A stretch of 64,000 bases of DNA from Tubiluchus corallicola (Eukaryota; Animalia; Priapulida). The position numbers were made by a program, and so were the translations under genes. How positions within the stretch are numbered: the first letter of the stretch is position 1; every line of letters starts with the position of its first letter. Of this stretch, positions 1,429 to 57,234 are shown one piece after another. Location of the stretch: the NCBI GenBank assembly GCA_030141605.1, contig JAQGDQ010000170.1:186001-250000 (forward strand), written 5' to 3'. Below the pieces are notes generated by a model. The model ran no database searches and was not told where the DNA came from. It saw nothing but the letters and a program-made list of their open reading frames with translations.

Positions 1429-1749
1429 AAACTGCAAGTCATAGTCCGGCTGCTTGCGAGCGTCTTGGGCAGAACGACCATGAAGCCAGAAGCCATACGT
1501 ATCCCAAGCATTTCCTGGATATTTTGACATTTTCAGAGACCTTTTTAGCAACTTCTAAATCTAACTTTTGATTTTTTGCACTATAAAAGTCTGTTTCTAA
1601 GCGATCAATTTGCTATTTAATTACGAACAGCTGCAAGCTACATAATTAGAACCAAAACAGTAAAGGACCGCCCAGACAATGATCATGTATAATGATAGTT
1701 GGGGTAATGTTAGTCAGCTTGTATTTATAATTGTGTTATAGCCCACAAA

Positions 1750-1806
1750 TAACCTAGCCACTGGGGGGGGGGGTCCCAAGCCCGGATAAATAGGGAGGGT
1801 TAGGGT
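1750..1806 (+). ncRNA. Twister ribozyme-like sequence (degenerate: lacks AGUGCC after the G run)
   Basis: U|AA CCUA GC CACU (G)n UCCCAAGC CCGG AUAAA UAGG GAGGG. P2 (CCUA/UAGG), L4 and GAGGG are perfect, but the P3 3' strand and part of the P4 5' strand are missing. Confidence 0.7.
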
Positions 1807-2218
1807 CAGGAAGGGCATCCGCCTGTAAAAACTGCGCCAAAACCTTCTATGAATGAGTCGGTGAGAGTTAAAGGTAAAGTCCACAAAGAAGTGGTCAGAC
1901 CCGCTCTAATCTATGGGCTGGAAGCAGCTTCTCTAAAGAAGACCGAAGAGAAGAAAATGGGTGTGGTGGAGATGAGAATGTTGAGATGGATGGTGGGAAT
2001 AACAAAAAGAGATAAAATTAGAAATAATAATATCAAAGGAACAGTAAAAGTAGTGGAAGCCTCGCACGATTGCGATGGTATGGACACCTGAAAAGAAGAG
2101 TCGGTGAAGATCTTGTGGGAAGGGAAGACATAAATGAAGAGATGGTCAACAAGAGGAATGCGTGGAGAAGACTCATTCACAACGGCGACCCCGAATAGGG
2201 AAAAGTTGGGAAGAAGAA
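1751..2218 (+). mobile_element. Non-autonomous RTE-derived retroelement (bipartite LINE derivative), full-length copy 1
   Basis: RTE-type 5' leader, remnant of RT C-terminus (KGKVHKEVVRPALIYGLE...EMRMLRWMVGITKRDKIRN), 3' stem-loop and (GAA)n tail. TSD atagcccacaaataa (1738-1752) / atagcctacaaataa (2219-2233). Confidence 0.9.
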
Positions 2219-3214
2219 ATAGCCTACAAATAATTGAAAACACATTTGCAGATAGGTGCTTTTGTTAAAGTTGCCTTGAACAATTTTATTTCACACTATA
2301 AAACATAAAAATAAAGGGAATATTATGAGATTTGTTAGCTGATGAAACCATTTTTCCTGTTAGCAAAATATTTCAATTGTTTCTAAAGAAATGGTGTTAC
2401 TGGGCTGTGCGTGAGAATGTGGGCAAGTGCGTTGCTTATGAATGCTTAAACAAAAAAAACTGCGAGGTCATCTTTACTTTCGCAAACCTTTTTACTTGTT
2501 GAGAAAGTGGTTTATAAATTCATAAAAAAGATCTAAATAAAATGATGCCAGCAGTTTGAATGCCACTGACTATGTATATAAATTATATAGCGTGTGACAC
2601 TGTGCTGCAGTTCATAACACGTTAGTTTAATTTTCATGCTGAAAAAACTTGAGTACTGTACCTTTATCATATAATTAGGTATCAGCAGCTTTGGCTGTGT
2701 ACCAGATGTCGACCAGCAACTGAGCAAGGAAGAGTTTTTCTGTACTGTACCCGGCATAACTTGGTAATATGAAACTCGTTTAAACACTTGCTGTATCGCG
2801 CAACAATGAGACGGCCACATTGTTATTTGCTTTCTGTGTTTAATCTTCTGGGTTCGGTCTCGCAAGCAGAACCTCTTGAAAACTTTAGATTGTGTATGAA
2901 GGAGTTCGTAAATAGACACACACTTGACCCAGTCGACTACACTAATGCTTACCTTAATTCTTGTTCCGCGCCAGGAAATTTTACCTACCTCGCTGAGACG
3001 CGCTGACAATAGCCGTTTCTCACGTTTTCTGGTAATACTGAGACAGCGTCTATTCTCAGGGCCTATTTGAAGGGGGGGGGATACTTCCCCGGGGCCTCAC
3101 CCTCCAGGGGGGCCTCGCGCCAAGGTAACATTTTTTGCTTTATGCGAACATACTGCCTCTTCTCTCCTCTCTCTCTCTCTCTCTCTTGCCGCACGCGCGC
3201 CGTTTGCCAGTATA

Positions 3215-3288
3215 GAGAAGACTCATGGAGAAGACTCATTCACAACGGCGACCCCGAATAGGGAAAAGCTGGGAAGAAGAAGAAGAAG
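3215..3288 (+). mobile_element. 3'-end fragment of the same RTE-derived element
   Basis: ggagaagactcattcacaacggcgaccccgaatagggaaaagctgg(gaa)n matches the 3' end of the other copies; gagaagactcat is duplicated at its 5' junction. Confidence 0.85.
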
Positions 3289-3313
3289 TTAGAGGTTGTA
3301 AATCTCAACCTAC

Positions 3314-4028
3314 CTAGTTTCCCCTGTGCTAGTCTTGTAACTGCTCCTGTACAGTCCTGCCAAATCGTCAGCAAGTTCACCTTCGAAGTTCATACTCACC
3401 CAGTACCTCATCTCAGGTTGAAGATAACCATTCAGTGTGAAGATGAGGAACTCTACACTTGTATCAAACTCCATGTTTCTAATAGTGGGCACGTCATAAC
3501 CTGGTGTAGCTACACTTAAAGTGTAGTTCGATACTGTTAACTTGTTACTGTGCAATATAATCTCGCTAGTAGCATTCTTACACTCAATTAGAATCTCCAC
3601 ATAACCGTCAAACGTGAACACGGATGGATCAAGATTTGGCCGCAATTCCACATTGTAATGGACGGGCAACAGATCACCCGGTATTCTCACATCTCTTGTG
3701 GGTGGTTCTGGCGTGGGTTCTGTAGTGGATTCAGGTTCTGGCTCGAGGGTGGTCGACATGTCGGTTGCTGCGCATTTGCTCAATGGTTTGCCCGTGTACG
3801 CCACTATAAGTCCAACCGCAGCTAAAGCTGCCAACACTAGAAGCACTAGAAGAACTGCTGTGGCGCGAGATATGAAGAATCCCTTCGTTTCCTTGAACTT
3901 GATGCTGCTCTGACTGTCGGACATTGCAAATTTCTCTTTTTGGATGTCGTTGCCCGTCATGTCGTCTGTGCTGGCGGTGTAGTTTCCAAGTGTAAAATCA
4001 CTATCTTCAAGTGAAAAGTTGCTGTTTC
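3314..4028 (-). CDS. Aminopeptidase N-like (M1 peptidase) large N-terminal exon: cytoplasmic tail, signal-anchor TM, Thr/Pro/Glu stalk, start of N-terminal beta domain
   Basis: Within ORF 3310..4056: KGFFISRATAVLLVLLVLAALAAVGLIVAY (TM), TTLEPEPESTTEPTPEPP stalk, RIPGDLLPVHYNVELRP...IILHS...F.G.L.DDLAGLYRSSY typical of APN. Acceptor tttttcag| at 4029-4030, donor AG|gtaggt at 3312-3313. Confidence 0.93.
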
Positions 4029-4068
4029 CTGAAAAAAAAACAGAATTTTGTATCAAAAACTTGGTGTG

Positions 4069-4282
4069 CTGATGATGATGACGACGACGACGACTATAAT
4101 GATGATGATGACGACGACTATGATGATGATGATGATGGTGGTGATGTTATGATGATGATGATAATGATGATGAAGACTACGACGACGATGACGACGACGA
4201 CTATGATGATGATGATGATGGTGGTGATGTTATGATGATGATGATAATGATGATGAAGACGACGACGACGACGACGATGATG

Positions 4283-4614: not shown

Positions 4615-5865
4615 TCTTATAATTTGACTGTTGACTGGTTCATTCATTTGTGCAGAATAGTCTTATAATTTGACTGTTGACTGGTTCATTCACTTGAGCA
4701 GAATAGTCTTATAATTTGGCTGTTGACTGATTCGTTCATTTGAGCAGAATAGTCTTATAATTTGGCTGTTGACTGATTCATTCATTTGAGCAGGATAGTC
4801 TTATAATTTGACTGTTGACTGATTCATTCATTTGAGCAAAATAGTCTTATAATTTGACTGTTGACCGATTCATTCATTTGAGCAGAATAGTCTTATAATT
4901 TGACTGTTGACTGATTCATTCATTTGAGCAGAATAGTCTTATAATTTGACTGTTGACTGATTCATTCATTTGAGCAGAATAGTCTTTTAATTTGACTGCT
5001 GACTGATTCATTCATTTGAGCAGAATAGTCTTATAATTTGACTGTTGACTGGTTCATTCATTTGAGCAGAATAGTCTTATAATTTGACTGTTGACTGATT
5101 CATTCATTTGAGCAGAATAGTCTTATAATTTGGCTGTTGACTGATTCATTCATTTGAGCAGAATAGTCTTATAATTTGGCTGTTGACTGATTCATTCATT
5201 TGAGCAGAATAGTCTTATAATTTGACTGCTGACTGATTCATTCATTTGAGCAGAATAGTCTTATAATTTGACTGTTGACTGATTCATTCATTTGAGCAAA
5301 ATAGTCTTATAATTTGACTGTTGACTGATTCATTCATTTGAGCAGAATAGTCTTATAATTTGACTGTTGACTGATTCATTCATTTGAGCAGAATAGTCTT
5401 ATAATTTGACTGTTGACTGATTCATTCATTTGAGCAGAATAGTCTTTTAATTTGACTGCTGACTGATTCAATCATTTGAGCAGAATAGTCTTATAATTTG
5501 ACTGTTGACTGGTTCATTCATTTGAGCAGAATAGTCTTATAATTTGACTGTTGACTGATTCATTCATTTGAGCAGAATAGTCTTATAATTTGGCTGTTGA
5601 CTGATTCATTCATTTGAGCAGAATAGTCTTATAATTTGACTATTGACTGATTCATTCATTTGAGCAAAATAGTCTTATAATTTGACTGCTGACTGATTCA
5701 TTCATTTGAGCAGAATAGTCTTATAATTTGACTGTTGACTGATTCATTCATTTGAGCAGAATAGTCTTATAATTTGACTGTTGACTGATTCATTCATTTG
5801 AGCAGAATAGTCTTATAATTTGACTGTTGACTGATTCATTCATTTGAGCAGAATAGTCTTATAAT
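4615..5865. repeat. 46-bp tandem satellite, ~27 copies, followed by one inverted unit (~5884-5924)
   Basis: Unit tcttataatttgactgttgactgattcattcatttgagcagaatag repeats head-to-tail without spacers. Confidence 0.97.
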
Positions 5866-6250
5866 TCTGCACTATTCTGCACTATAATAGACTATTCTGC
5901 ACAAATGACTGAATCAGTCAACAGATAAATTTCAACATACGTCAGTTTTAGTCAGCACGCAGAAAGTTCATTATTTACAAGAGTTCCACGTTATTGTAAT
6001 GACAAAACGCGTATAATCTGTAACTCCGAGTCAAAAGATAGCACGTCACACAGAATATGCTATATTGCACTCACACGTTATATCCCACATAGTTTACTGT
6101 ACAGGTTTGTATATACATCCAAATGTAGATAACACATTGTGAATAAAACACTCAACCTAAACTTGTCTTATTTCAATGGTTGAATAAGCTTACATGGAGT
6201 AAAAGTTCATACGTGCTGTCAATATTAATACTGGATTTTATCATTTTTAC

Positions 6251-6266: not shown

Positions 6267-7352
6267 GATGTATCGAAATCTATATATCTTCGAGGATATT
6301 CGACTTTAGATCGTCCAGTCTGGTGAACTTATAGATTTTTAAATGTTTTCGTTTTCGTGAAAATTTTCTACTTTAACTCGATGTGCTATGAAAAGCTTTT
6401 CGTCTTTTACTGTTGAAGCAAAAATGGAGTTTCTCAAACCGATTGAATTAATGCCACATATCAGAATTACATAAATCATATCAGCCACATATCAGAATTA
6501 CATAAATCATACTTTTGAATTTGTTTTGAAAGTATTATTATTTACTTCTGAATGCTAATAATGCAAGATACAGTCTTAAAGTATCAGAGATATACAAAAA
6601 TTCTATTCCAAAGTTCTTCTAAACAGCCATGTAACAGGTATAACAGCTCAAACCATTTTTAAATTCTTTATTGGCTAACAATACATTTATAATTTCGGCT
6701 GCATAGATTTCTTGAACAACTTTAAGCGGGCGCAAATTAGAAATGATTTTGCTCGAAAAACTTTATCGTTCTAATCTTAATTTTAATGTTATCTATTGAT
6801 GATGGAACGATCCCTTAATTACTGAATTTTTGAAACCAAATTTTGTGCGAAGGGAAGTAAGAGCAAGAACTCAGCAGGGATTTGAACCAGGGACTAGACA
6901 CAGTCCCGCCTTTTCACAGTTCTTTCCGTTCGGACCCTGCTTTGAAAACTTTAATAATTAAAGATTAATTCTATCATTGTTTCTGTAATTCTCATATGCA
7001 ATGCATTCTTGATTTTTAATTACGTATTTCACCACTAAATTACACCACTTGGAACAGAAATTTGAATGATCCGTACAGCACAACACGCACATGCACATGT
7101 GGTAGATAAACTGAATGTATCACACCAGTAAAATACGTGATTGATAACTTGACTATCCCTATTGATAAACTTTCTCATGTTTATAGACTAGCCAAGTCAT
7201 CAGTCTACAATACAAGAACTCAACAACAATGACAAACACGTAAAGCAAACCAAATAAGGGCGTTGTAAACTTTCAGTATAAAAAAATCTAAATTTCACTT
7301 TACGTGAAGCACTGCAGGCCTTCACTTCTTCCCTAATTAACCCGTGAGTTAA

Positions 7353-7808
7353 CCCTTTCAGTCCCAAATTATTTTTTAATAAGAAAATTTTTTTCCTTGA
7401 TACTTTTGTTCAGTATGTCCATCTTGTTTACACATAATAATAATTGTTTTCACCTGTACCCGCGTGCTAAATATAGCCTGTATCCCACGGGATACATTGG
7501 GATTCAATAGAAGCATAAAATGTGCTTCATTTTGCAACTGCTGATGATTTTTTAAAGTATTTAAGACATTTAGTATGCACGCTATGCTGATCTGTACAAA
7601 GTCGTCTCTAAGGTACTGTACCTTGCGCAGTTTTTTATGCTATGTAGATTTTCTAGTTTGCCATTTTATCACCATTTTTAGTCTATTGTTATTGGCTTAA
7701 ATCAAAATAACTATTAACAGATCAAATAACTGTCAGTTTTAAAATTTTATTAATTTTAAAGGCAGAAAATATTGTCGTATCCCACGGGATACAACGGGTA
7801 AGAAAGGG
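7353..7808 (+). mobile_element. piggyBac-like MITE, copy 1
   Basis: TTAA|CCCTTTC ... GAAAGGG|TTAA termini; internal gtatcccacgggatac palindromes; near-identical to copies at 13.5, 16.2 and 19.1 kb. Confidence 0.88.
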
Positions 7809-8124
7809 TTAAAAGGCTAATTAACGAAGTCTAATTGTTAAGAGCAAAGGGCTAAAAGAAGAGGACTAATGTACAGGATGCCCCCCCCCCCCACTGCTTT
7901 CTTACGAACCTCTTACTGGAACTACTTCAATAGCCGCCAAGTCTAGGTGCAGATTGTTTACCAAGACTTTACGGATTCCGAGAAAGTTCCATGCTAATTA
8001 ACCTTATTCGCGCTAAAGTGTGTATTAAGCTAAACAGAAAGGAATTAAGTTGTTGTGGTGGTTTTTGTGTTTGTTTTTTTGTGTTTTTGTTGTTTGTTTT
8101 TTGTTTGTTGTGTGGTGTTGGTGT

Positions 8125-12080: not shown

Positions 12081-12480
12081 AAAAAGTCACAGGAAAAAAG
12101 TCACAAGAAAAAAGTCACAGATAAAAAGTCACAGGTAAAAAAGTCACAAGAAAAAAGTCACAGATAAAAAGTCACAGGTAAAAAAGTCACAAGAAAAAAG
12201 TCACAAGTAAAAAGTTACAGGTAAAAAAGTCACGGGTAAAAAACTCACAAGAAAAAAGTCACAGCTAAAAAGTTACAGGTAAAAAAGTCACAAGAAAAAA
12301 GTCACAAGAAAAAAGTCACAGGTAAAAAAGTCACAGGAAAAAGTCACAGGTAAAAAAGTCACAAGAAAAAAGTCACAAGAAAAAAGTCACAGGTAAAAAA
12401 GTCACAGGAAAAAGTACACAAAAAAAGAAACAACCCTAAAACTAACCCCAACCCTAACCCCTATCCCTAGCCCTAACCCA
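12081..12480. repeat. 13-15 bp tandem array (aaaaaagtcaca(a/g)g) followed by degenerate telomere-like (CCCTAA) repeats
   Basis: Array 12081-12420; aaccctaaaactaaccccaaccctaacccctatccctagccctaaccc at ~12432-12479. Confidence 0.85.
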
Positions 12481-13506
12481 CGCCAAAATATATTGCCCTT
12501 TTACTATGAATTTTTCCTTACCTGTCACCAGTTTTTCTGTTTATCTAAAAATACCTGTACTAAACAAGTAAACAGTACGTAAAACTGTTTATCTAAACTA
12601 CCTGTACTAAACAATTAAACCGATCATGTTTTATCAAGAATTTCGCATAACAACAATATTAATAAGCCGTTTGCGGTGATGCTGTAAATAAATTTTGTGA
12701 ACTTATATTTTAATACGTTATGACAGTGTCCTGTACAAGCTGAGTAAACTGAGTAACATAGTTCAAGCAAGTTTTGAAACAAAGCAAGCAAATAATAAGC
12801 CTTTTCACAGTTTCTTTGTGCGCATGCGCAGTTGCTGTAAGTCAAAGGTTAAGTGTACCACAGCAGCGCATCTTAACTACAACCGTCACATGACATGTGG
12901 GTAAAGCAAAATCGTCTGGTGCACCTGTTTGGTAACGTTAGTTGTTTTGCATGGACTTTGTTTAATTATGCATTAGTCTGTGCATAGAGTGATTTACTAG
13001 CAGGATCTTGTTTGGAAACAAAAAATGAACTAGGTAAGGCTAGCTAGCTGTTAAAACTGTTACTCTTACAATAGCATGAGCTGAGAGGCGTTGTCACGTG
13101 TACACAAATGGGTTGTCTGGTACACTTAAACTCTGACCTTTTCACGATCATCATCAATCGCTGGAACTGTTCTTTTCGGGAAATTACATGCCACTGATAC
13201 TGCAGAGTAAAATTACGCTGCGAAGTGTTACGTTTTTCATGTAGCCCATGCAGAGTGCAGACGTGAAAAACATTGCGATTAGCCGGCTAAGATTTTAATT
13301 GCTTAATACATGTATAAGTAAACAGCAGATTAGCAACGGGGCAGAGCTGAAGTGGTAGGTGTGAATTTGCCTCGAAGCATCAGTTAACTCTTTACTTGAT
13401 GTGGAAAATATGCGAAGTATAATAGTTGAAATTTTATTCTCAACAGAAAACATATAAATAATTATTTAAATTGATTTTAATCTCCAAATTCTTACCCCGT
13501 TTTTAA

Positions 13507-13964
13507 CCCTTTCATACCCGTTGTATCCCGTGGGATACAAGAATATTTTCTGCCTTTAAAATTAATAAAATTTTAAAACTGACAGTTATTTGATCTGTTA
13601 ATAGTTATTTTGATTTAAGCCAATAACAATAGATGAAAAATGGTGATAAAATGGCAAACTAGAAAATCTACATAGCATAAAAAACTGTGCAAGGTACAGT
13701 ACTTTAGAGACGACATTGTACAGATCAGCATAGCATGAATACTAAATGTCTTAAATACTTTAAAAAATTATCAGCAGTTGCAAAATGAAGCACATTTTAT
13801 GCTTCCGTTGAATCCCAATGTATCCCGTGGGATACAGGCTATATTTAGCACGTGGGCACAGGTAGAAAAAATAATTATTATGTGTAAACAAGATGGACAT
13901 ACTGAACAAAAGTATCAAGCCAAATGATTTTTTCTTATTAAAAAATAATTTGGGACTGAAAGGG
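13507..13964 (-). mobile_element. piggyBac-like MITE, copy 2
   Basis: TTAA TSDs at 13503-13506 and 13965-13968; CCCTTTC TIRs. Confidence 0.88.
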
Positions 13965-15115
13965 TTAATTGCGCTATATATAAATGTTTTTAATTCTTTG
14001 CGCGTGAAATAAAATTTACCTTTATGTATGAAGCACAATAAACGGTCTTACCTGTCTGTACAGATTAAGATTTCACAGATTAAAATATTCGCGTTTAAAT
14101 TTAATTATCCACAAACACGAGGAAAGCAGCAGTGCACATCTCTCAGGTAAGCTTCCGGTCAGCAGGTGTTGCTCATCAGCATCTCACGCCGAGGGAGGAG
14201 GAGTTACGCCCTTTGCCACGCCCATCGATTCAGGTAAAGTGTGAAGCCTTGACACTCGATTGATTTGATCAATACATCGTATCAATCAATCATTTTCACC
14301 AATTGTTCAGTAAGAAATACAGTGAATAAAGCAAGTTTGTACTTGAACGTTGAGCTAATGCAGTTTTTATAATTTGTGCAGGTAAGTTTTAATTTTAATG
14401 AAGTTTGTACACAAACAACGTAAACTGTTGTAAGTCATCTTTCCAAGGCACACGTCTTGTAAATGATTAGTCTTGCACGACCAGATAAACGCTTGAAGGC
14501 AATATGAGAACGAATGAAACTTTTTATCCATCTCTAAACCTATAAACCTAAGACCCGGTAATATGACTTAAGCCTAATCTTATTCATTTAAATCCGCCAT
14601 CGTTCCAGCCATGTCCAAAACGTTTGTCTGCAGGTCCTGCTGTAATTATAAATAACAGAAAAAACGCACTTTTGCGTAGGTGATTCAATTCCTACAGACT
14701 TGAGACAGGTGGGCATTATTCATTTGCTTGATTTAGGTGCACTAGAATGCGAGTGTAGAACAGGGTACTTGTTGGGTTTAGACACGCCCTTATTCCGTTC
14801 ATACATGTGGTTTCTCTTAGCTTATCATAAACCTCAAAACCTGTGTCGATCCAGTTCATGCCCAGGCTGACTCTGACGTCACAAGTAAATGACCCAGAAG
14901 TACTAAATGCGAATAGAGAGTTACAGATTTTTCCCAAAGTTGTAATCAGTTCATGTAAGCTAAACTCGCTAGTTTATAATCCAAAAATTAAAATATCTAT
15001 TGCCTGGTGGTGATCCGGTGCGCGTAAGGCAACCACAGCAGCTGTTCACACCAGGATCAACGTTGTGGCCGCCCCCATATTTTTAAATGTGAACAGGATA
15101 GCTACCGTATCTAAC

Positions 15116-15403
<288 letters not shown>

Positions 15404-16180
15404 TCTTTTTACTTATCTTGTAAAACATGCACAGTTATAATACAATTAATTTGGTAACAAAAATGTGAAGAAAGGGTAGCGAAAGACCAATTGGTCATCT
15501 AGTCAGCTGCCCTTTGGTTAGTGATGAACATTTTTATAGGCACTATGCTACAGTGTGTTAGTGTTAGTACTGCTTATAATAAAAATTAATTATTACGAAT
15601 GACATTAAATTGATATGCTTATAACGTGTTAGTACAATTCATACACAGTAATAGTAAGTGCATAGTAAAAAAAATCAAACTGAAAATAACTGAAATAAAA
15701 CTGAACTGAAACAAGAACTGAAATAAAAATCTGACAACAGAAACATAATAATTGTTACGATTATAAAAAATACTAGTAAAAATGGTTTATTTAAGTAAAT
15801 GCAATTCACGGTAAAGTAATTATAACTGCATTTATAATTTCAAAATATTTTCTATGTTTAAAACTCTAATATTGGCCACATTCGTCGATACATTTGTGCA
15901 TTCTGAGTTAAAGATACTGAGATAATAATAAATGACATAATACTTTTATAATACATTTACTTATATTATATTTTTCAGAAATTTCTGTTGGGCGTGGCAT
16001 TTCACTTATCTTTACCATTAACCAGTCTAATCACGTGCTACATGGATGAGCTGAATCACTTTTTGCCTGCAGTTCTTAGTATACATCGCAATTCCTAATC
16101 AATCTCCAAAGCTAATTTTCATGGACATCTGATTCCATGCGTACTATTTTCAAAGCCTTTTACCTCAAATTCTTCGTTAA

Positions 16181-16934
16181 CCCTTTCATACCCGTTGTAT
16201 CCCGTGGGATACGAGAATATTTTCTGCCTTTAAAATTAACAAAATTTTAAAACTGACAGTTTTTTTGATCTGTTAATAGTTATTTTGATTTAAGCCAATA
16301 ACAATGGACTAAATATGGTGATAAAATGGCAAACTAGAAAATCTACATAGCACAAAAAACTGCGCAAGGTACAGTACTTTAGAGACGACTTTGTACAGAT
16401 CAGCATAGCATGCATACTAAATGTCTTAACTACTTTAAAAAATTATCAGCAGTTGCAAAATGAAGCACATTTTATGCTTCTATTGAATCCCAATGTATCC
16501 CGTGGGATACGAGATATTTTCTGCCTTTAAAATTAATAAAATTTTAAAACTGACAGTTATTTGATCTGTTAATAGTTATTCTGATTTAAGCCAATAAAAA
16601 TAGACTAAAAATGGTGATAAAATGGCAAACTAGAAAATCTACATAGCATAAAAAACTGTGCAAGGTACAGTACTTTAGAGACGACTTTGTACAGATCAGC
16701 ATAGCATGCATACTAAATGTCTTAAATACTTTAAAAAATTATCAACAGTTGCAAAATGAAGCACATTTTATGCTTCCATTGAATCCCAATGTATCCTGTG
16801 GGATACAGGCGATATTTAGCACGCGGGCACAGTAGAAAAAATAATTATTATGTGTAAACAAGATGGACATACTAAACAAAAGTACTAAATCAAAAAAAAA
16901 TTCTTGTTAAAAAAATAATTTAAGACTGAAAGGG
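16181..16934 (-). mobile_element. piggyBac-like MITE, copy 3, with ~300-bp internal tandem duplication
   Basis: TTAA TSDs at 16177-16180 and 16935-16938; the segment between gtatcccgtgggatac palindromes (~16197, ~16495, ~16791) is present twice. Confidence 0.88.
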
Positions 16935-18067
16935 TTAAAGCATGAAAGATTTAAGCCACTTACGTAAAGCTTAAAAATTCGTCCTGAAATTTTGTACCAC
17001 TTACATACTGCCTCTTTGCATACAGGGCTTGCGTCGGGAGTAACGCTGTATAAAACATGTATAAATTTAAACTCCCGTTAGGCGCAGCCATTTTGAGGAC
17101 AAGTCATTTGAAATAGGTTTACATTTCAATAATCAAAAATAATCAATGTATTCGTAGCGATACGTCACTAAGTAAAATTTTAAATTGCTGTATCTTGTCA
17201 ATAAGATTAAAAATATGTTTTCTGGTTAGTGAGTGGTGCACCCTGGAGGATCAGTCAGCGACATTTTGCCAATTGGTGAAAACATTTTAAATAATTAATA
17301 ATTTTCTTTTCTTGTTACATAAGTCTTTCAGGCAGGTAAGCGAAATGCTAAGTAATATAACCTTGCATGGAAAGTTTAACATAGTTTAACATTGCCTTAT
17401 CTTCCCCTGATTTACGTTGTGCATATATGACGTCATGTAATGGCGCGGTCGGGACAGTATTGCGGGAAATTAAAAATGAAAACAAACAAAAAATCCTTTT
17501 CAGCGCGAGTACGATATACGCATAAAATTGTTATAAAGTAATACAATTTCTTAAGAGGATTTTTCTGAAACCTACTTCAGGTACCCCTCTTCTTGGATGC
17601 ATGTGGCCAGCTACTCTCTAGGCTTTCTAATTCTAAAAAGAAATATCGTTGCTTTTAGTTAAGTTAATTGCTTTTAAACTGAAACTGGACAATTAAGCAA
17701 GTAATTGCAAGCAAACTTGAGTATGAATGTATGATGAATTCTCTTCAAGGCGTTTTATTGCAGAATTATGTACAAGTTGTACGATCTTGATAAGCAGAAA
17801 AGACGGTATTTGCGGCCAGAACCTGCAGAGGTAACCTGACAAAACTAAAGCAGGTAAAAAGTGGAAGATTTAGATAAGAAAACTATTCCGGAATGCGAAG
17901 CATTGACTTACTCGCTTATTTAGATTTTTTCTGCCGAATTAGAAGAATATGTCATTTAGAACATTGTCGCTGCCTGCTCGCTAAACTCTCCAGGTTCATT
18001 TCGATCAAGGTGACACTCGATCGACACTTTTCTATATCTCTCGTTTTCTCTTTCCCTCCCTCTATCC

Positions 18068-18160: not shown

Positions 18161-19055
18161 AAACTAAACGTCTAAAAATCGATAATATCTCAGCCAAAAC
18201 AGGATGTGTTTCTGTAATGGCGTGAATTCGCCTGTTCAGCCCGAGTTTTGTGTGTAACATGTGATACAGTGTAGTGCCCTCTATCGGCAACTGTTCGGTT
18301 GAAATATCCGACCATCAACTTTGATGGTTTGCAATCTGTTTTTAACCACAACAATGTTAATTCTAGCATTGATGCATTAGCTAAAATTTCCCGTACATAT
18401 CATAAACTGTGATATATTACTATGTATTGGTAATTCAGAATATTCACTATGAATTACCAGCTGACGAATTAATGCTGATCGCACGTACGCTTTCTTATGT
18501 AATTGCTACCTTAATTGTATTCGTCAATTCAGGAAATAGTTTTCCAAAAAATGAACGCCTAGCAGGCTAGCATCTGCGTTCCAGTGCATGATGATCAAGA
18601 TGAAATAAAAACTCAGCTGAAATGGTTGTTAATAAACATGCGCGTCTACAGTTGCCATGAATCCAAATTTCGACAAAAATGTACTATGCACTATTTGCGG
18701 CAAAATGATAAAGTCCCACAGTTTTGTAGTACCTGAACGTGAACAACACGGCGAAATGAACGGCTCTATACAGTTACCCTTAAAATAAATCTTTTATAAA
18801 TCAAGAATAATGGGTTTATTGACCAGCTGATGGCGTCAAAACGAAGATTATGCACTAATATATTACAATAGATGTAGGTGACATTATAATATATCTAATA
18901 AACACTGGAGTAATATAGGAGATGCTGGGATGGAGACAAAGCTAAATTTGATTCAGACAAATTTCTTGTGCCACTAGCATAGCATTTCATAATTAGTTAA
19001 GAAAATTGTCACAAAATATCTGTACTGTGCACAGTCATAGGTGAAATCCTTTTAA

Positions 19056-19400
19056 CCCTTTCAGTCCCAAATTATTTTTTTAATAAGAAAAACTTTTTTA
19101 AAAACACAACAAAAGCAAAAACTGTGCTTCATTTTGCGACTGCTGATAATTTTTTAAAGTATTTAAGACATTTAGTATGCATGCTATGTTGATCTGTACA
19201 AAGTCGTCTCTAAAGTACTGTACCTTGCGCAGTTTTTTATGCTACGTAGATTTTCTAGTTTGCCATTTTATCACCATTTTTAGTCTATTGTTATTGGCTT
19301 AAATCAAAATAACTATTAACAGATCAAATAACTGTCAGTTTTAAAATTTTATTAATTTTAAAGGCAGAAAATATTCTTGTATCCCACGGGTATGAAAGGG
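19056..19400 (+). mobile_element. piggyBac-like MITE, copy 4 (internally deleted)
   Basis: TTAA TSDs at 19052-19055 and 19401-19404; lacks about 110 bp present in copy 1. Confidence 0.88.
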
Positions 19401-19939
19401 TTAACTGATAAACTTTATCAGGTTCAACCGGGACGTATCAACGCTTTACGATGCCCTAAGCTAATAGTTCTATCCCGCTTATCTCTAGTGTGAATTTATG
19501 GCTGCTTATGTAATGAGCAAATTAAACAATTACTTGTGGTGTATTAGAAACATATTAACCTAGTTTCTACGTGTCATTATTAATTACTTGCATTTGCATA
19601 GCGCTTATATTCAAGCAGGCTGTGCAACTGCTTGTTGTGTAATACCTTGCACCTGTTCGTTATGTGGCACTTATATAAAAGCTTAGCTGCTATTGACATC
19701 GTTAGTTAACGCCGTTATAAAGTTTGCTTCGTTAACTGCCTGTGGTGTGTTATAAAATGCCCCTTTATATGAATATGAAAGTTACACATTTTCCGAGGAG
19801 AATAAGAATTTTTTCTGAAATGTGATGCCCTCAGATTTTAGCACCCCTGGCTATAACCTAGTTGCCTATTGGTTAAGACGCCCCTGAGTTCAACAGATGA
19901 AGCATAGGGTCCATCTGGCATAGTACTATTACTCCATTC

Positions 19940-20526
19940 CAGATCGCCATGCCAGACAACTAAACTCCTTCCACCTGCGTTGTCTAAGACGACTCCTCAA
20001 GATCAGCTGGCAGGACTTGATACCAGAACCTGAAATCCTCGAGAGAGCACAATCCATCAGTGTCCATTCAATGCTTAAGGCAGCACAACTGAAATGGGTT
20101 GGCCATGTTCAACGTATGGAAGATCACAGACTGCCAAAGAGACTCATGTACTGCGAGCTGAAAGAAGGGAAACGGTCAGTTGGAGGGCAACGGAAAAGAT
20201 ACAAAGACACCCTCAAAGCCAGCCTGAAAGAATGCAACATCAATGTCGACTCCTGGGAAGATGTGGCACAGGAGAGATCTCGTTGGCGGTCCCTCATCAA
20301 ATCGGGAGTGACCAACTATGAGTCCAGGCGCATCCAAGTTAGGCAGGAGAAAAGACAGCTTCGAAAAGACAGACAACGCAATGCCTATCAAGGCACACCA
20401 TTCTCATGTCCTCATTGCAGGAGGAGGTTCTCAGCAAGAATCGGGCTTATAAGACACTTCCGTACACATCCTACGAAGTCAGAATGAAGTCATGGTCCTC
20501 TTCGACTATGAAGGACGAACAACAAC
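19940..20526 (+). mobile_element. 5'-truncated RTE-clade (BovB-like) LINE: ORF C-terminus with C2H2 zinc finger, short 3' UTR and (CAA)n tail
   Basis: RHARQLNSFHLRCLRRLLKISWQD...QLKWVGHVQRMEDHRLPKRLMYCELKEGKRSVGGQRKRYKDTLK...CPHCRRRFSARIGLIRHFRTH. Probable TSD attactccatt (19928-19938) / attactgcatt (20527-20537). Confidence 0.9.
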
Positions 20527-21268
20527 ATTACTGCATTACCAGGGTGTGTCGGCAAACTCTTTACATTCTTTAGCCCGGTTTTAAGGTTTTAAAATGATTC
20601 TTTGGAACAGTCGTGAGCACAAATCATTACTCTTCTGCTACAGAGGTGATAATGTTATTATCAACACAGCCAAACACAATAGTTAGAACAAAAATCCATA
20701 ATTTATTTAAACCAAAAACTTGGCTACATCAATTTATCTGTACAACATTATAACATAGTTCACATCATTGCTCATACACCTATTCAGATTTAGTAACCCG
20801 AGTCTCCAAATGAAATACCGCAAATGATATGAATTATGATTTCTGTTTAAAAAGCCAGACCATAGTTCCAAACGCACACCTACCAAACGTGAATCAGCCA
20901 ACTTTAAAATTGTGAGACATCTTAACGTTAAATTAGAATTACTACAGAGCTATAATAAAATACACCCTATTAACAATGCAAGTGTCTTATTTTTATTACC
21001 TATTTACATCTTAGAAATGTACACCAAAAACGTCAGAGTACTAATATAGAAAACCAACAACACAATGAAGTATAAGCAGACCACCAAATGTGAAAACAAA
21101 TGATATTATGTCATAAACTCAACACGTATCTGATTAAATTTTACTTTGGTTTTTGAATTTCCAAGGAATTAATGCATTTATTGCACAATTTTCACAATTA
21201 TGGCATCACTCAAGGACATAAACTCAATGACTGTGCTTTGTTTTTAGCCATTATGGTTAGTTTTGCGG

Positions 21269-21330
21269 AAACCTAGCCACTGGGGGGGGGAGTGCCGGTT
21301 CCAAGCCCGGATAAACAGGGAGGGTTAGGG
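21269..21330 (+). ncRNA. Twister self-cleaving ribozyme (type P1, RTE-associated)
   Basis: A|AA, P2 CCUA(21272-75)/CAGG(21316-19), T2 GC(21276-77)/GC(21305-06), P3 CACU/AGUG, P4 CCGG/CCGG, L4 UUCCAAGC, AUAAA linker, catalytic G21320-A-GGG (T1). The core closely matches the rice twister core as recalled (GCCGGUCCCAAGCCCGGAUAAAAGUGGAGGG). Confidence 0.82.
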
Positions 21331-21747
21331 TCAGGAAGGGCATTCGCCTGTAAAAACTGCGCCAAAACCTTCTATGAATGAGTCGGTGAGACTAAAAGGG
21401 AAAGTCCACAAAGAAGTGGTCAGACCCGCTCTAATCTATGGGCTGGAAGCAGCTTCTCTAAAGAAGACCGAAGAGAAGAAAATGGGTGTGGTGGAGATGA
21501 GGATGTTGAGATTGATGGTGGGAATAACAAGAAGAGATAAAATTAGAAATAATAATATCAGAGGAACAGTAAAAGTAGTGGAAGCCTCGCAAGATTGCGA
21601 TGGTATGGACACCTGAAAAGAAGAGTCGGTGAAGATCATGTGGGAAGGGAAGATATAAATGAAGAGATGGTCAACAGCAGGAATGCGTGGAGAAGACTCA
21701 TTCACAACGGCGACCCGGCATAGGGAAAAGCTGGGAAGAAGAAGAAG
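21270..21747 (+). mobile_element. Non-autonomous RTE-derived retroelement, full-length copy 2
   Basis: Colinear with 1751-2218; perfect TSD atggttagttttgcggaa (21253-21270 / 21748-21765); (GAA)n tail. Confidence 0.92.
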
Positions 21748-21993
21748 ATGGTTAGTTTTGCGGAAAAAAACACGTTATTTCATTAGATAATGTTCAAGGA
21801 TGCAATACTAACAATTAGCCACACCTGGCGTGAATATTATTCAATATTCTTTTAAATATTCTGAAGTTTCCTATATCTAGTAAGATTCACCACTGCATTA
21901 GAAGCTGAAATATACAAAACCTGAGGGTACCTAAATACCATCAAATCTATAGTATTTTATCGACACAATATCAGTAAACAGATCTAGGTAAGT

Positions 21994-42953: not shown

Positions 42954-57234
<14,281 letters not shown>

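What the first reader, a model, noticed from the sequence alone, without database searches (positions are those of the whole stretch)
21253..21765. Twister self-cleaving ribozyme caps a non-autonomous RTE-derived retroelement that starts at the cleavage site
Seen: a ~478-bp element between perfect TSDs begins AA-CCUA-GC-CACU(G9)AGUG-CCGG-UUCCAAGC-CCGG-AUAAA-CAGG-GAGGG-UUAGGG. This supplies the type-P1 twister core (P2, P3, P4, pseudoknots T1 and T2, catalytic G21320) but not the 5' strand of P1. The element's 5' boundary falls at the AA just 3' of the predicted scissile bond (within 1-2 nt, because the TSD ends in A's). Known: twister ribozymes process the 5' end of RTE-clade retrotransposon transcripts (e.g. 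Perere-3 of Schistosoma mansoni), and twister variants with little or no P1 can still cleave. Inference: this is a promoter-less, SINE-like parasite with no tRNA head or Pol III boxes. It would be excised from host read-through transcripts by self-cleavage, borrowing the -1 nucleotide and any P1 strand from the target site, and then copied by an autonomous RTE partner.
Basis: partly seen in the sequence, partly recalled or inferred. Interest (0 to 1): 0.85.

Follow-up and report, generated by a model that had tools for sequence, protein, structure and literature searches.

The report
Twister-headed, internally deleted RTE retroposon
This is one copy of an abundant 478-base jumping element made from the two ends of an RTE retrotransposon; it begins at the predicted cut site of a twister-type self-cutting RNA that likely frees it from host transcripts, a combination of two arrangements that are each already known.

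Summary
Observation confirmed. A 478-bp element (21270-21747) lies between perfect 19-bp target-site duplications. It starts with a twister-P1 match (45.4 bits, E 8e-7, below the 67.2 gathering score). A second full-length copy starts at the same AA. The body is the C-terminal end of an APE+RT (RTE-type) ORF with three internal deletions and a (GAA)n tail. 1,607-3,356 contigs per run lie on it, and undeleted relatives show as loose ends. In other genomes, 63 of 78 related heads start at AA+P2, with random upstream sequence and chance-level P1; P2 and P3 vary compensatorily. Five short twister-headed elements with TSDs were found there. Best reading: a ribozyme-headed, internally deleted RTE derivative copied in trans. 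Cleavage, transcription and 'promoter-less' are untested, and a genome-wide 5' pile-up could not be run. The parts are published: Perere-3 twister with TSD-supplied P1, bipartite non-autonomous RTEs, ribozyme-headed R2 SIDEs. Five searches found no paper on the combination, but this scan noted it in three findings on other DNA. New variant of a known kind; modest interest.

The parts
21253..21271 (+). 5' target-site duplication (19 bp at its longest; its last two A overlap the element's first AA); supplies N-1 (A21269) and the two G.U pairs of P1
   Evidence: Rfam alignment
21270..21747 (+). whole element, 478 bp, internally deleted RTE derivative (copy B)
21265..21328 (+). type-P1 twister ribozyme match; predicted cut 21269^21270; P2 21272-75/21316-19 (one A.C), 2-bp pseudoknot 21276-77/21305-06, P3 21278-81/21291-94, P4 21295-98/21307-10, 3-bp pseudoknot 21300-02/21322-24 (one U.G), predicted general base G21320
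   Evidence: 45.4 bits, E 7.9e-7; pair table
21318..21340 (+). canonical four-tract G-quadruplex motif over the ribozyme's 3' half
   Evidence: present in both full-length copies, the only two on the + strand of the window; 0 of 120 related heads
21329..21381 (+). rest of the RTE 5' UTR; 86% identical over 21292-21368 to the UTR of an autonomous APE-RT element (L071)
21374..21616 (+). 80-codon ATG-to-TGA frame, mostly RT C-terminal sequence; likely a relic
   Evidence: a stop variant at 21514 in 5-13% of summed depth
21383..21723 (+). last ~150 codons of an APE+RT ORF, with a frameshifting deletion of about five codons near 21590 and a 29-30-codon deletion near 21652; native stop TAG 21721-23
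   Evidence: loose ends at 21650 and 21655
21724..21747 (+). short 3' UTR and (GAA)n tail
21748..21766 (+). 3' target-site duplication
1751..2218 (+). copy A: full length, 94.9% identical, same 5' start, 15-bp TSD with one mismatch, 6-nt deletion that breaks P3/P4
10429..10667 (-). copy C: 5'-truncated, 10-bp TSD, longer GAA tail
3226..3288 (+). copy D: last ~60 bp only, no TSD found

Best explanation
The element is a repeated, internally deleted derivative of an RTE-type LINE whose twister head likely cuts it out of longer host transcripts at N^AA, after which an autonomous partner's proteins would copy it by target-primed reverse transcription. Shown by sequence: it keeps the LINE's 5' end (twister plus UTR) and 3' end (last ~150 codons, 3' UTR, GAA tail), has lost about 820 codons including APE and RT, is flanked by TSDs, and occurs as full-length and 5'-truncated copies. 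Inferred: (1) a source copy is transcribed by read-through; (2) the twister folds without a real P1 and leaves 5'-OH-AACC; (3) the partner's protein recognises the shared 3' end and primes on a nicked target; (4) the 5' joint is helped by pairing of the terminal AA with target A's; (5) each new site supplies a new N-1 and a random P1 strand. This copy has drifted (A.C in P2, U.G in a pseudoknot, shortened P3) and need not be a source copy.
For: Twister-P1 matches at the first bases of 2 of 2 full-length copies, both starting at the same AA with unrelated upstream sequence. Body hits APE+RT proteins at up to 79% identity; three deletions mapped. Three listed contigs with 6-8 other letters bridge the UTR/RT junction by more than 31 bases on each side (records 2, 10, 18), so the deleted form is a family. 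Loose ends at 21388, 21650 and 21655 translate as the deleted RT sequence, so undeleted relatives are in the same runs. In related loci 63 of 78 distinct heads begin AA+P2; in the 39-member group column conservation rises from 0.31-0.44 upstream to 0.79-1.0 from the AA on. P1 length among the 63 is about chance (0 bp 35, 1 bp 16, 2 or more 12). P2 shows U-A/C-G, C-G/U-A and C-G/A-U swaps; P3 positions 2-5 are paired in 63 of 72 cells versus 39.6 +/- 3.9 in shuffles. An allele at this same locus has the two flawed pairs intact. Literature: Perere-3 twisters cleave in vitro and in yeast to give 5'-AA with any N-1, and TSDs form P1 (PMC8501958). About 94% of natural twisters tested were active, with P1 and P2 flaws tolerated and U.G in PK2 better tolerated than most mismatches (PMC11662667). 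A T-stretch lies ~10 nt before the TSD at B and C, as described for RTE insertions (PMC6007223).
Against: The score is below the Rfam gathering threshold. Energy folding does not give the twister stems (z -0.57 and +0.58) and offers a competing 7-bp helix 21272-78/21323-29 (the program cannot model pseudoknots). A G-quadruplex motif covers G21320. Copy A has lost part of P3/P4. The 5' pile-up rests on two copies of this family: no genome is held and the narrow lay returned only this locus. Recognised host exons are on the opposite strand. P4 was fixed by my search pattern, so its covariation is untested. The rows of the P3 shuffle are related to each other, so it is not a probability.
Confidence: 0.8

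Rival explanations
1. The head is an inherited relic. The 5' end is set by an internal Pol II promoter in the RTE UTR (or simply by where the master copy began), and the ribozyme no longer matters for this family.
For: [quoted passage not shown]
Against: The start coincides with the cut site in this family and in many others; P2 carries a compensatory change relative to the closest autonomous head L071; intact heads exist in the runs; a transcription start would not be expected at the catalytic A by chance.
Confidence: 0.12
2. The element is a mini-gene parasite: after cleavage the folded head drives cap-independent translation of the 80-residue RT C-terminal peptide, which helps its own copying.
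For: The ATG-initiated frame is open in 2 of 2 full-length copies; cleaved Perere-3 twisters supported downstream translation in yeast (PMC8501958).
Against: A versus B differ by 5 non-synonymous and 2 synonymous codons; a TGA variant at 21514 makes up 5-13% of summed depth; no Pfam domain; the five short elements of other genomes gave no tblastn hit to two RTE proteins.
Confidence: 0.05
3. It is a retrozyme-like element that replicates through a circular RNA made by the ribozyme.
For: Short, non-autonomous and ribozyme-bearing, as retrozymes are (search listing).
Against: One ribozyme per element, no terminal or tandem repeat, a LINE 3' end, TSDs of 10-19 bp and 5'-truncated copies; summed depth rises towards the 3' end in run X3.
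Confidence: 0.03

Closest known systems
Perere-3 (RTE clade, Schistosoma mansoni) with 5' twister 'T-variant' ribozymes; Liu et al. 2021, PMC8501958 (read: abstract, Results parts 1-3 of 4 plus section 21, Discussion; supplement searched)
   Same: Type-P1 twister at the 5' end, element starting at the AA of the cut site, TSD adjacent and supplying N-1 and the 5' strand of P1, non-specific insertion, microsatellite tail, host-promoter model.
   Different: Perere-3 is autonomous (single APE-RT ORF). The parts read describe no internally deleted family, though 18.6% of T-variants had no conserved domain downstream. P2/P3 sequence and tail (GAA versus GTAA) differ.
Bipartite non-autonomous RTE elements (Bov-A unit, RTESINE1/2, MAR4_MD, WALLSI3); Kojima 2018, PMC5786205 (read: first of 5 parts and passages)
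   Same: 5' end plus 3' end of an RTE LINE joined by internal deletion, no small-RNA head; the paper notes that such elements usually keep the true 5' end and links this to 5' ribozymes.
   Different: The ribozymes cited there are the HDV-like ones of Ruminski 2011; no twister is named in the passages read. This element keeps ~340 nt of ORF with two further deletions, not only UTRs.
R2 SIDEs and R2/R1 hybrid SIDEs; Eickbush and Eickbush 2012, PMC3414825 (read: abstract)
   Same: 5' self-cleaving ribozyme joined to a LINE 3' end, released from a host co-transcript, copied in trans by TPRT.
   Different: HDV-like ribozyme, site-specific in 28S rDNA; here a twister, dispersed, with many copies.
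Trypanosomatid NARTc/RIME with the Pr77 HDV-like ribozyme (PMC4035085: search listing only; named in PMC5786205 passages)
   Same: Dispersed, short, internally deleted LINE derivatives with a ribozyme-bearing 5' end.
   Different: Ingi/L1Tc clade and HDV-like ribozyme. That Pr77 is also a promoter is recalled, not read here.

Membership tests
Type-P1 twister ribozyme (RF03160) | Covariance-model match over the whole model | tested here: inconclusive
   Model positions 1-68 matched, 45.4 bits, E 7.9e-7, but below gathering 67.2; P1 is target-derived and P3 is short
Type-P1 twister ribozyme (RF03160) | P2, P4, two pseudoknots, conserved AA at the cut and G after P2 | tested here: met
   All present, with one A.C in P2 and one U.G in the 3-bp pseudoknot; both are intact in another allele
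Type-P1 twister ribozyme (RF03160) | Compensatory variation in stems | tested here: met
   P2 and P3 across 17 head types plus the window copies; P4 was fixed by the search pattern and not tested
Type-P1 twister ribozyme (RF03160) | Site-specific self-cleavage at N^A | not testable with these tools
   Needs a cleavage assay
RTE-clade derivative | Homology to single-ORF APE+RT proteins of about 1000 residues | tested here: met
   Hits of 967-989 aa with PF03372+PF00078; that this architecture marks the RTE clade is recalled, and stated for Perere-3 in PMC8501958
RTE-clade derivative | Placement among named RTE references in an RT tree | not tested
   No named RTE reference protein was fetched; no tree was built
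RTE-clade derivative | Microsatellite tail, variable TSD, T-stretch about 10 nt upstream | tested here: met
   (GAA)n tail; TSDs of 19, 15 and 10 bp in 3 of 4 copies; T-rich upstream in the three checked (PMC6007223)
Bipartite non-autonomous LINE / SIDE | LINE 5' end joined to LINE 3' end, APE and RT lost | tested here: met
Bipartite non-autonomous LINE / SIDE | The deleted form itself has multiplied | tested here: met
   Same deletions in copies A, B and (the 3' two) C; diverged contigs bridge the junction
Bipartite non-autonomous LINE / SIDE | An intact autonomous partner in the same genome | tested here: inconclusive
   Loose ends show undeleted relatives; no full ORF was seen and no genome is held
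Pol III SINE | tRNA/7SL/5S head with A and B boxes | tested here: not met
Retrozyme | Ribozyme in terminal or tandem repeats giving circular RNA | tested here: not met
   Single ribozyme, no such repeats, LINE tail; the definition comes from search listings and recall

The most novel reading that the evidence does not exclude
This family has turned its ribozyme head into a switch. A G-quadruplex that is absent from related twister heads covers the catalytic G, so the RNA can cut only in the moment before the fourth G tract is transcribed, and the folded quadruplex then shields the uncapped 5' end. It would be the first regulated ribozyme in a class of twister-headed, promoter-less retroposons that has arisen many times from RTE LINEs.
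Probability: 0.1. Interest if true: 0.7.

Novelty: new variant of a known kind. Interest (0 to 1): 0.35.

Why it matters
It extends the one published role of eukaryotic twister ribozymes (5' processing of Perere-3) to a short, high-copy non-autonomous family. The related loci suggest that such twister-headed deletions of RTE LINEs arise repeatedly, which offers an explanation for abundant twisters with no RT downstream (18.6% in S. mansoni had no conserved domain). A 478-nt RNA with both required ends is a compact substrate for testing what an RTE protein needs in trans and whether a 5'-OH-AA end guides the 5' joint. It does not change the mechanism already proposed for Perere-3 and R2 SIDEs.

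Tried and rejected
No whole genome is held, so no genome-wide copy alignment was possible. No RNA holder was listed for the stretch; the one run guessed to be RNA gave a single 35-base match to a different twister head; neither says anything about expression. The narrow lay on 21225-21312 returned only contigs of this locus (1 in X1, 4 in X2, none in X3 and X4), so it could not test the 5' pile-up. Summed depths were not turned into a copy number. The P2 search was off by one base, so its table and counts were discarded and redone; the script crashed and was rerun. Alignment A1 had one row with wrong coordinates and one cut short, and was not used. In one search, 19 of 120 loci were dropped as duplicates upstream and 23 of the remaining 101 had no recognisable 5' P2 strand (truncated heads or contig ends); 15 of the 78 kept do not start with AA, some of them spurious matches. 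One TSD call there (L018) was a match inside the UTR and was rejected. L090 was left out of the P3 test (P3 too short). Minimum-energy folding does not support or refute a double-pseudoknot RNA. A predicted 3' hairpin (z -2.3) depends on bases private to this copy and was given no weight. Pfam found no host exon between 5.9 and 45 kb (3 of 134 frames hit, all at 45.4-49.1 kb on the minus strand). Literature searches for the combination listed no paper on twister-headed non-autonomous RTEs. The library lacks most subscription papers and Repbase, and the CHiTA supplement, which might hold a tested relative, could not be read. The Perere-3 supplement had no hit for this head. No earlier finding matched this sequence.

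Full report
Observation. The window is animal-like DNA: AT-rich, full of microsatellites, with exon-sized frames of an aminopeptidase N and an EGF/WAP protein. A perfect 19-bp repeat lies at 21253-21271 and 21748-21766. Rfam gives nothing at gathering thresholds. By E-value the two best matches in the 64 kb are both twister-P1: 21265-21328 (45.4 bits, E 7.9e-7) and 1746-1803 (43.2 bits, E 3.4e-6), against a gathering score of 67.2. The alignment places A21269 at N-1 and A21270 at +1. G21320 follows the 3' strand of P2, the position I equate with the general-base guanine (G45/G48 in PMC5408937, passages; the positional mapping is recalled). This copy has three weak spots: A21275.C21316 in P2, U21300.G21324 in the 3-bp pseudoknot, and a P1 of two G.U pairs.

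The family in the window. There are four copies. Copy A (1751-2218, 94.9% identical) starts at the same AA after unrelated sequence, has a 15-bp TSD with one mismatch, an intact P2 and 3-bp pseudoknot, but a 6-nt deletion after the G run that breaks P3/P4. Copy C (minus strand, 10667-10429) is 5'-truncated with a 10-bp TSD. Copy D (3226-3288) is only the last 60 bp, with no TSD found. AA has a frequency of 0.114 in the window, so 2 of 2 suggests microhomology at the 5' joint; this is inference from two cases.

The body. Translation of 21374-21583 finds 81 proteins among 117 candidates at E <= 0.001, the best at 79% identity, several of them 967-989-residue proteins with endonuclease and RT domains. 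The element carries only the last ~150 codons. About 820 codons are missing after the UTR, about five codons with a frameshift near 21590, and 29-30 codons near 21652. The native stop is at 21721-23, followed by a short UTR and (GAA)n. The 5' part is 86% identical over 78 bases to the UTR of L071, an element whose APE-RT frame starts about 85 bases after P4. An ATG at 21374 opens an 80-codon frame in 2 of 2 full-length copies, but with 5 non-synonymous and 2 synonymous differences and a stop variant in 5-13% of summed depth it is likely a relic. No tRNA gene or Pol III box was found. RTE assignment rests on architecture, tail and insertion signature: a T-stretch about 10 nt before the TSD and an A-rich tail matching the TSD start, as in PMC6007223 (abstract and section 16). 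No tree was built.

Abundance and partner. On 21150-21850, 3,030, 3,356 and 1,607 contigs were laid from three DNA runs (two samples), nearly all on the element and most 90-100% alike; 1 contig came from the fourth run. Summed depth is thousands of times that of the flanks; it is not a copy number, but the family is clearly large. Three listed contigs with 6-8 other letters bridge the UTR/RT junction, so the deleted form multiplied as such. Loose ends at 21388, 21650 and 21655 read as the missing RT sequence, so undeleted relatives are present; a whole intact partner was not seen. Loose ends before 21291 (14 contigs in X1, 29 in X2) show that many copies have a longer P3, with a loop like that of L071; this form is not in the window. 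At this locus run X2 holds a second allele in which the two flawed pairs are intact.

Related heads elsewhere. Of 101 with distinct upstream sequence, 78 had a recognisable 5' P2 strand and 63 of those began with AA. N-1 was T 26, A 17, C 12, G 8. Contiguous P1 pairs were 0 in 35, 1 in 16 and 2 or more in 12, close to chance. In the largest group (39 rows) conservation starts at the AA. Fourteen of the 120 loci have RTE protein homology downstream on the same strand; many others end too soon to tell. Across 17 head types plus the window copies, P2 swaps pair types at three of four positions, and P3 positions 2-5 are paired in 63 of 72 cells against 39.6 +/- 3.9 in 5,000 shuffles; relatedness inflates this, and P4 was fixed by the pattern. 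Five loci hold short twister-headed elements between TSDs: L022 (159 nt), L041 (233), L049 (366), L050 (306), L090 (107). L041 is the first 148 and last 87 bases of the 3.3-kb element in L060 (94% and 99% identical). L049 and L050 are 87% alike and look like a family. The arrangement is therefore recurrent.

Mechanism. Most likely (0.8) a source copy is transcribed by read-through, the twister cuts at N^AA without needing P1, and an autonomous RTE protein copies the RNA from its 3' end. Shown: anatomy, multiplication, start at the predicted cut. Inferred: transcription, cleavage, trans-mobilisation, lack of a promoter. Support for cleavage is indirect. Perere-3 variants cut with any N-1 (PMC8501958), P1-less twisters cut (PMC5408937), and about 94% of natural twisters tested were active with P1 and P2 flaws tolerated (PMC11662667, abstract and passages); that paper also found pseudoknot flaws more harmful, and this copy has a wobble there. 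Against activity of this copy: energy folding favours other helices, a canonical G-quadruplex motif spans 21318-21340 in both full-length copies and in 0 of 120 related heads, and the host exons recognised in the window are on the opposite strand.

Comparison. It works like Perere-3 at the 5' end (PMC8501958: abstract, most of Results, Discussion, supplement search) and like an R2 SIDE overall (PMC3414825: abstract; PMC6765202: passages). It is a member of the bipartite non-autonomous RTE class (PMC5786205: first part and passages) on the features I could test. It is not a Pol III SINE or a retrozyme. Five searches listed no paper that joins twister and non-autonomous RTE; Repbase, subscription papers and one unreadable supplement could hold one. 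This scan has three earlier notes of twister-headed short RTE derivatives on other DNA; they are unchecked and were not used as support.

Verdict. Real and correctly read, but assembled from published parts: new variant of a known kind, interest 0.35. The boldest open reading, a quadruplex switch on the ribozyme, gets probability 0.1.

Noticed in passing
window 21254, 21269 and 21764: A second allelic form of this filled site has A>G at the same position of both TSD copies (21269 in X2; 21764 in X2 and X3) and a head closer to the ideal twister. If these are in phase, which contigs cannot show, it would need two independent insertions at one site or conversion between TSDs. Unexplained.
   Followed up: partly
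window 21318-21340 and 1793-1815: Canonical G-quadruplex motif over the ribozyme's 3' half, specific to this family among the heads checked.
   Followed up: partly
window 21282-21290 and 1763-1774: Both full-length copies have lost sequence right after the G run in P3 compared with the longer form seen in reads; the run length also varies between runs (6 G in X1). The G run may be a deletion hot spot.
   Followed up: partly
window 21272-21278 with 21323-21329: A 7-bp alternative helix could compete with P2 and the pseudoknots; L071 can form a 6-bp version with one compensatory change. One event, may be chance.
   Followed up: no
L049 and L050: Short twister-headed family (306-366 nt, 87% alike, ATGG-type tail, TSDs of 9-11 bp) with no RTE protein match; L049 has an internal inverted duplication.
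   Followed up: partly
L041, L022, L090 versus L060, L008: Minimal twister-headed derivatives of 107-233 nt with TTG-type tails; L041 is an exact two-end deletion of the L060 element.
   Followed up: partly
window 19924-20487 (+): 3' fragment of another non-LTR element ending in a C2H2 zinc finger, about 770 bp upstream of the finding on the same strand.
   Followed up: no
window 7349-7814, 13501-13968, 16177-16938, 19052-19405: A different repeat of about 466 bp in five or so copies at 92-96% identity, not identified.
   Followed up: no
window 3310-4146 (-) and 43819-49095 (-): Host gene pieces: aminopeptidase N N-terminal exon; EGF-repeat and WAP exons and a possible Ig-like exon without Pfam hit. 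Copy A lies on the opposite strand just downstream of the aminopeptidase exon.
   Followed up: partly
window 4615-5931 and 12432-12479: 46-bp tandem array (27 copies) ending in an inverted repeat; short telomere-like (AACCCT)n run.
   Followed up: no
run X6, one contig on 21292-21326: A twister core with different P3 and downstream sequence, probably the head of another RTE family.
   Followed up: no
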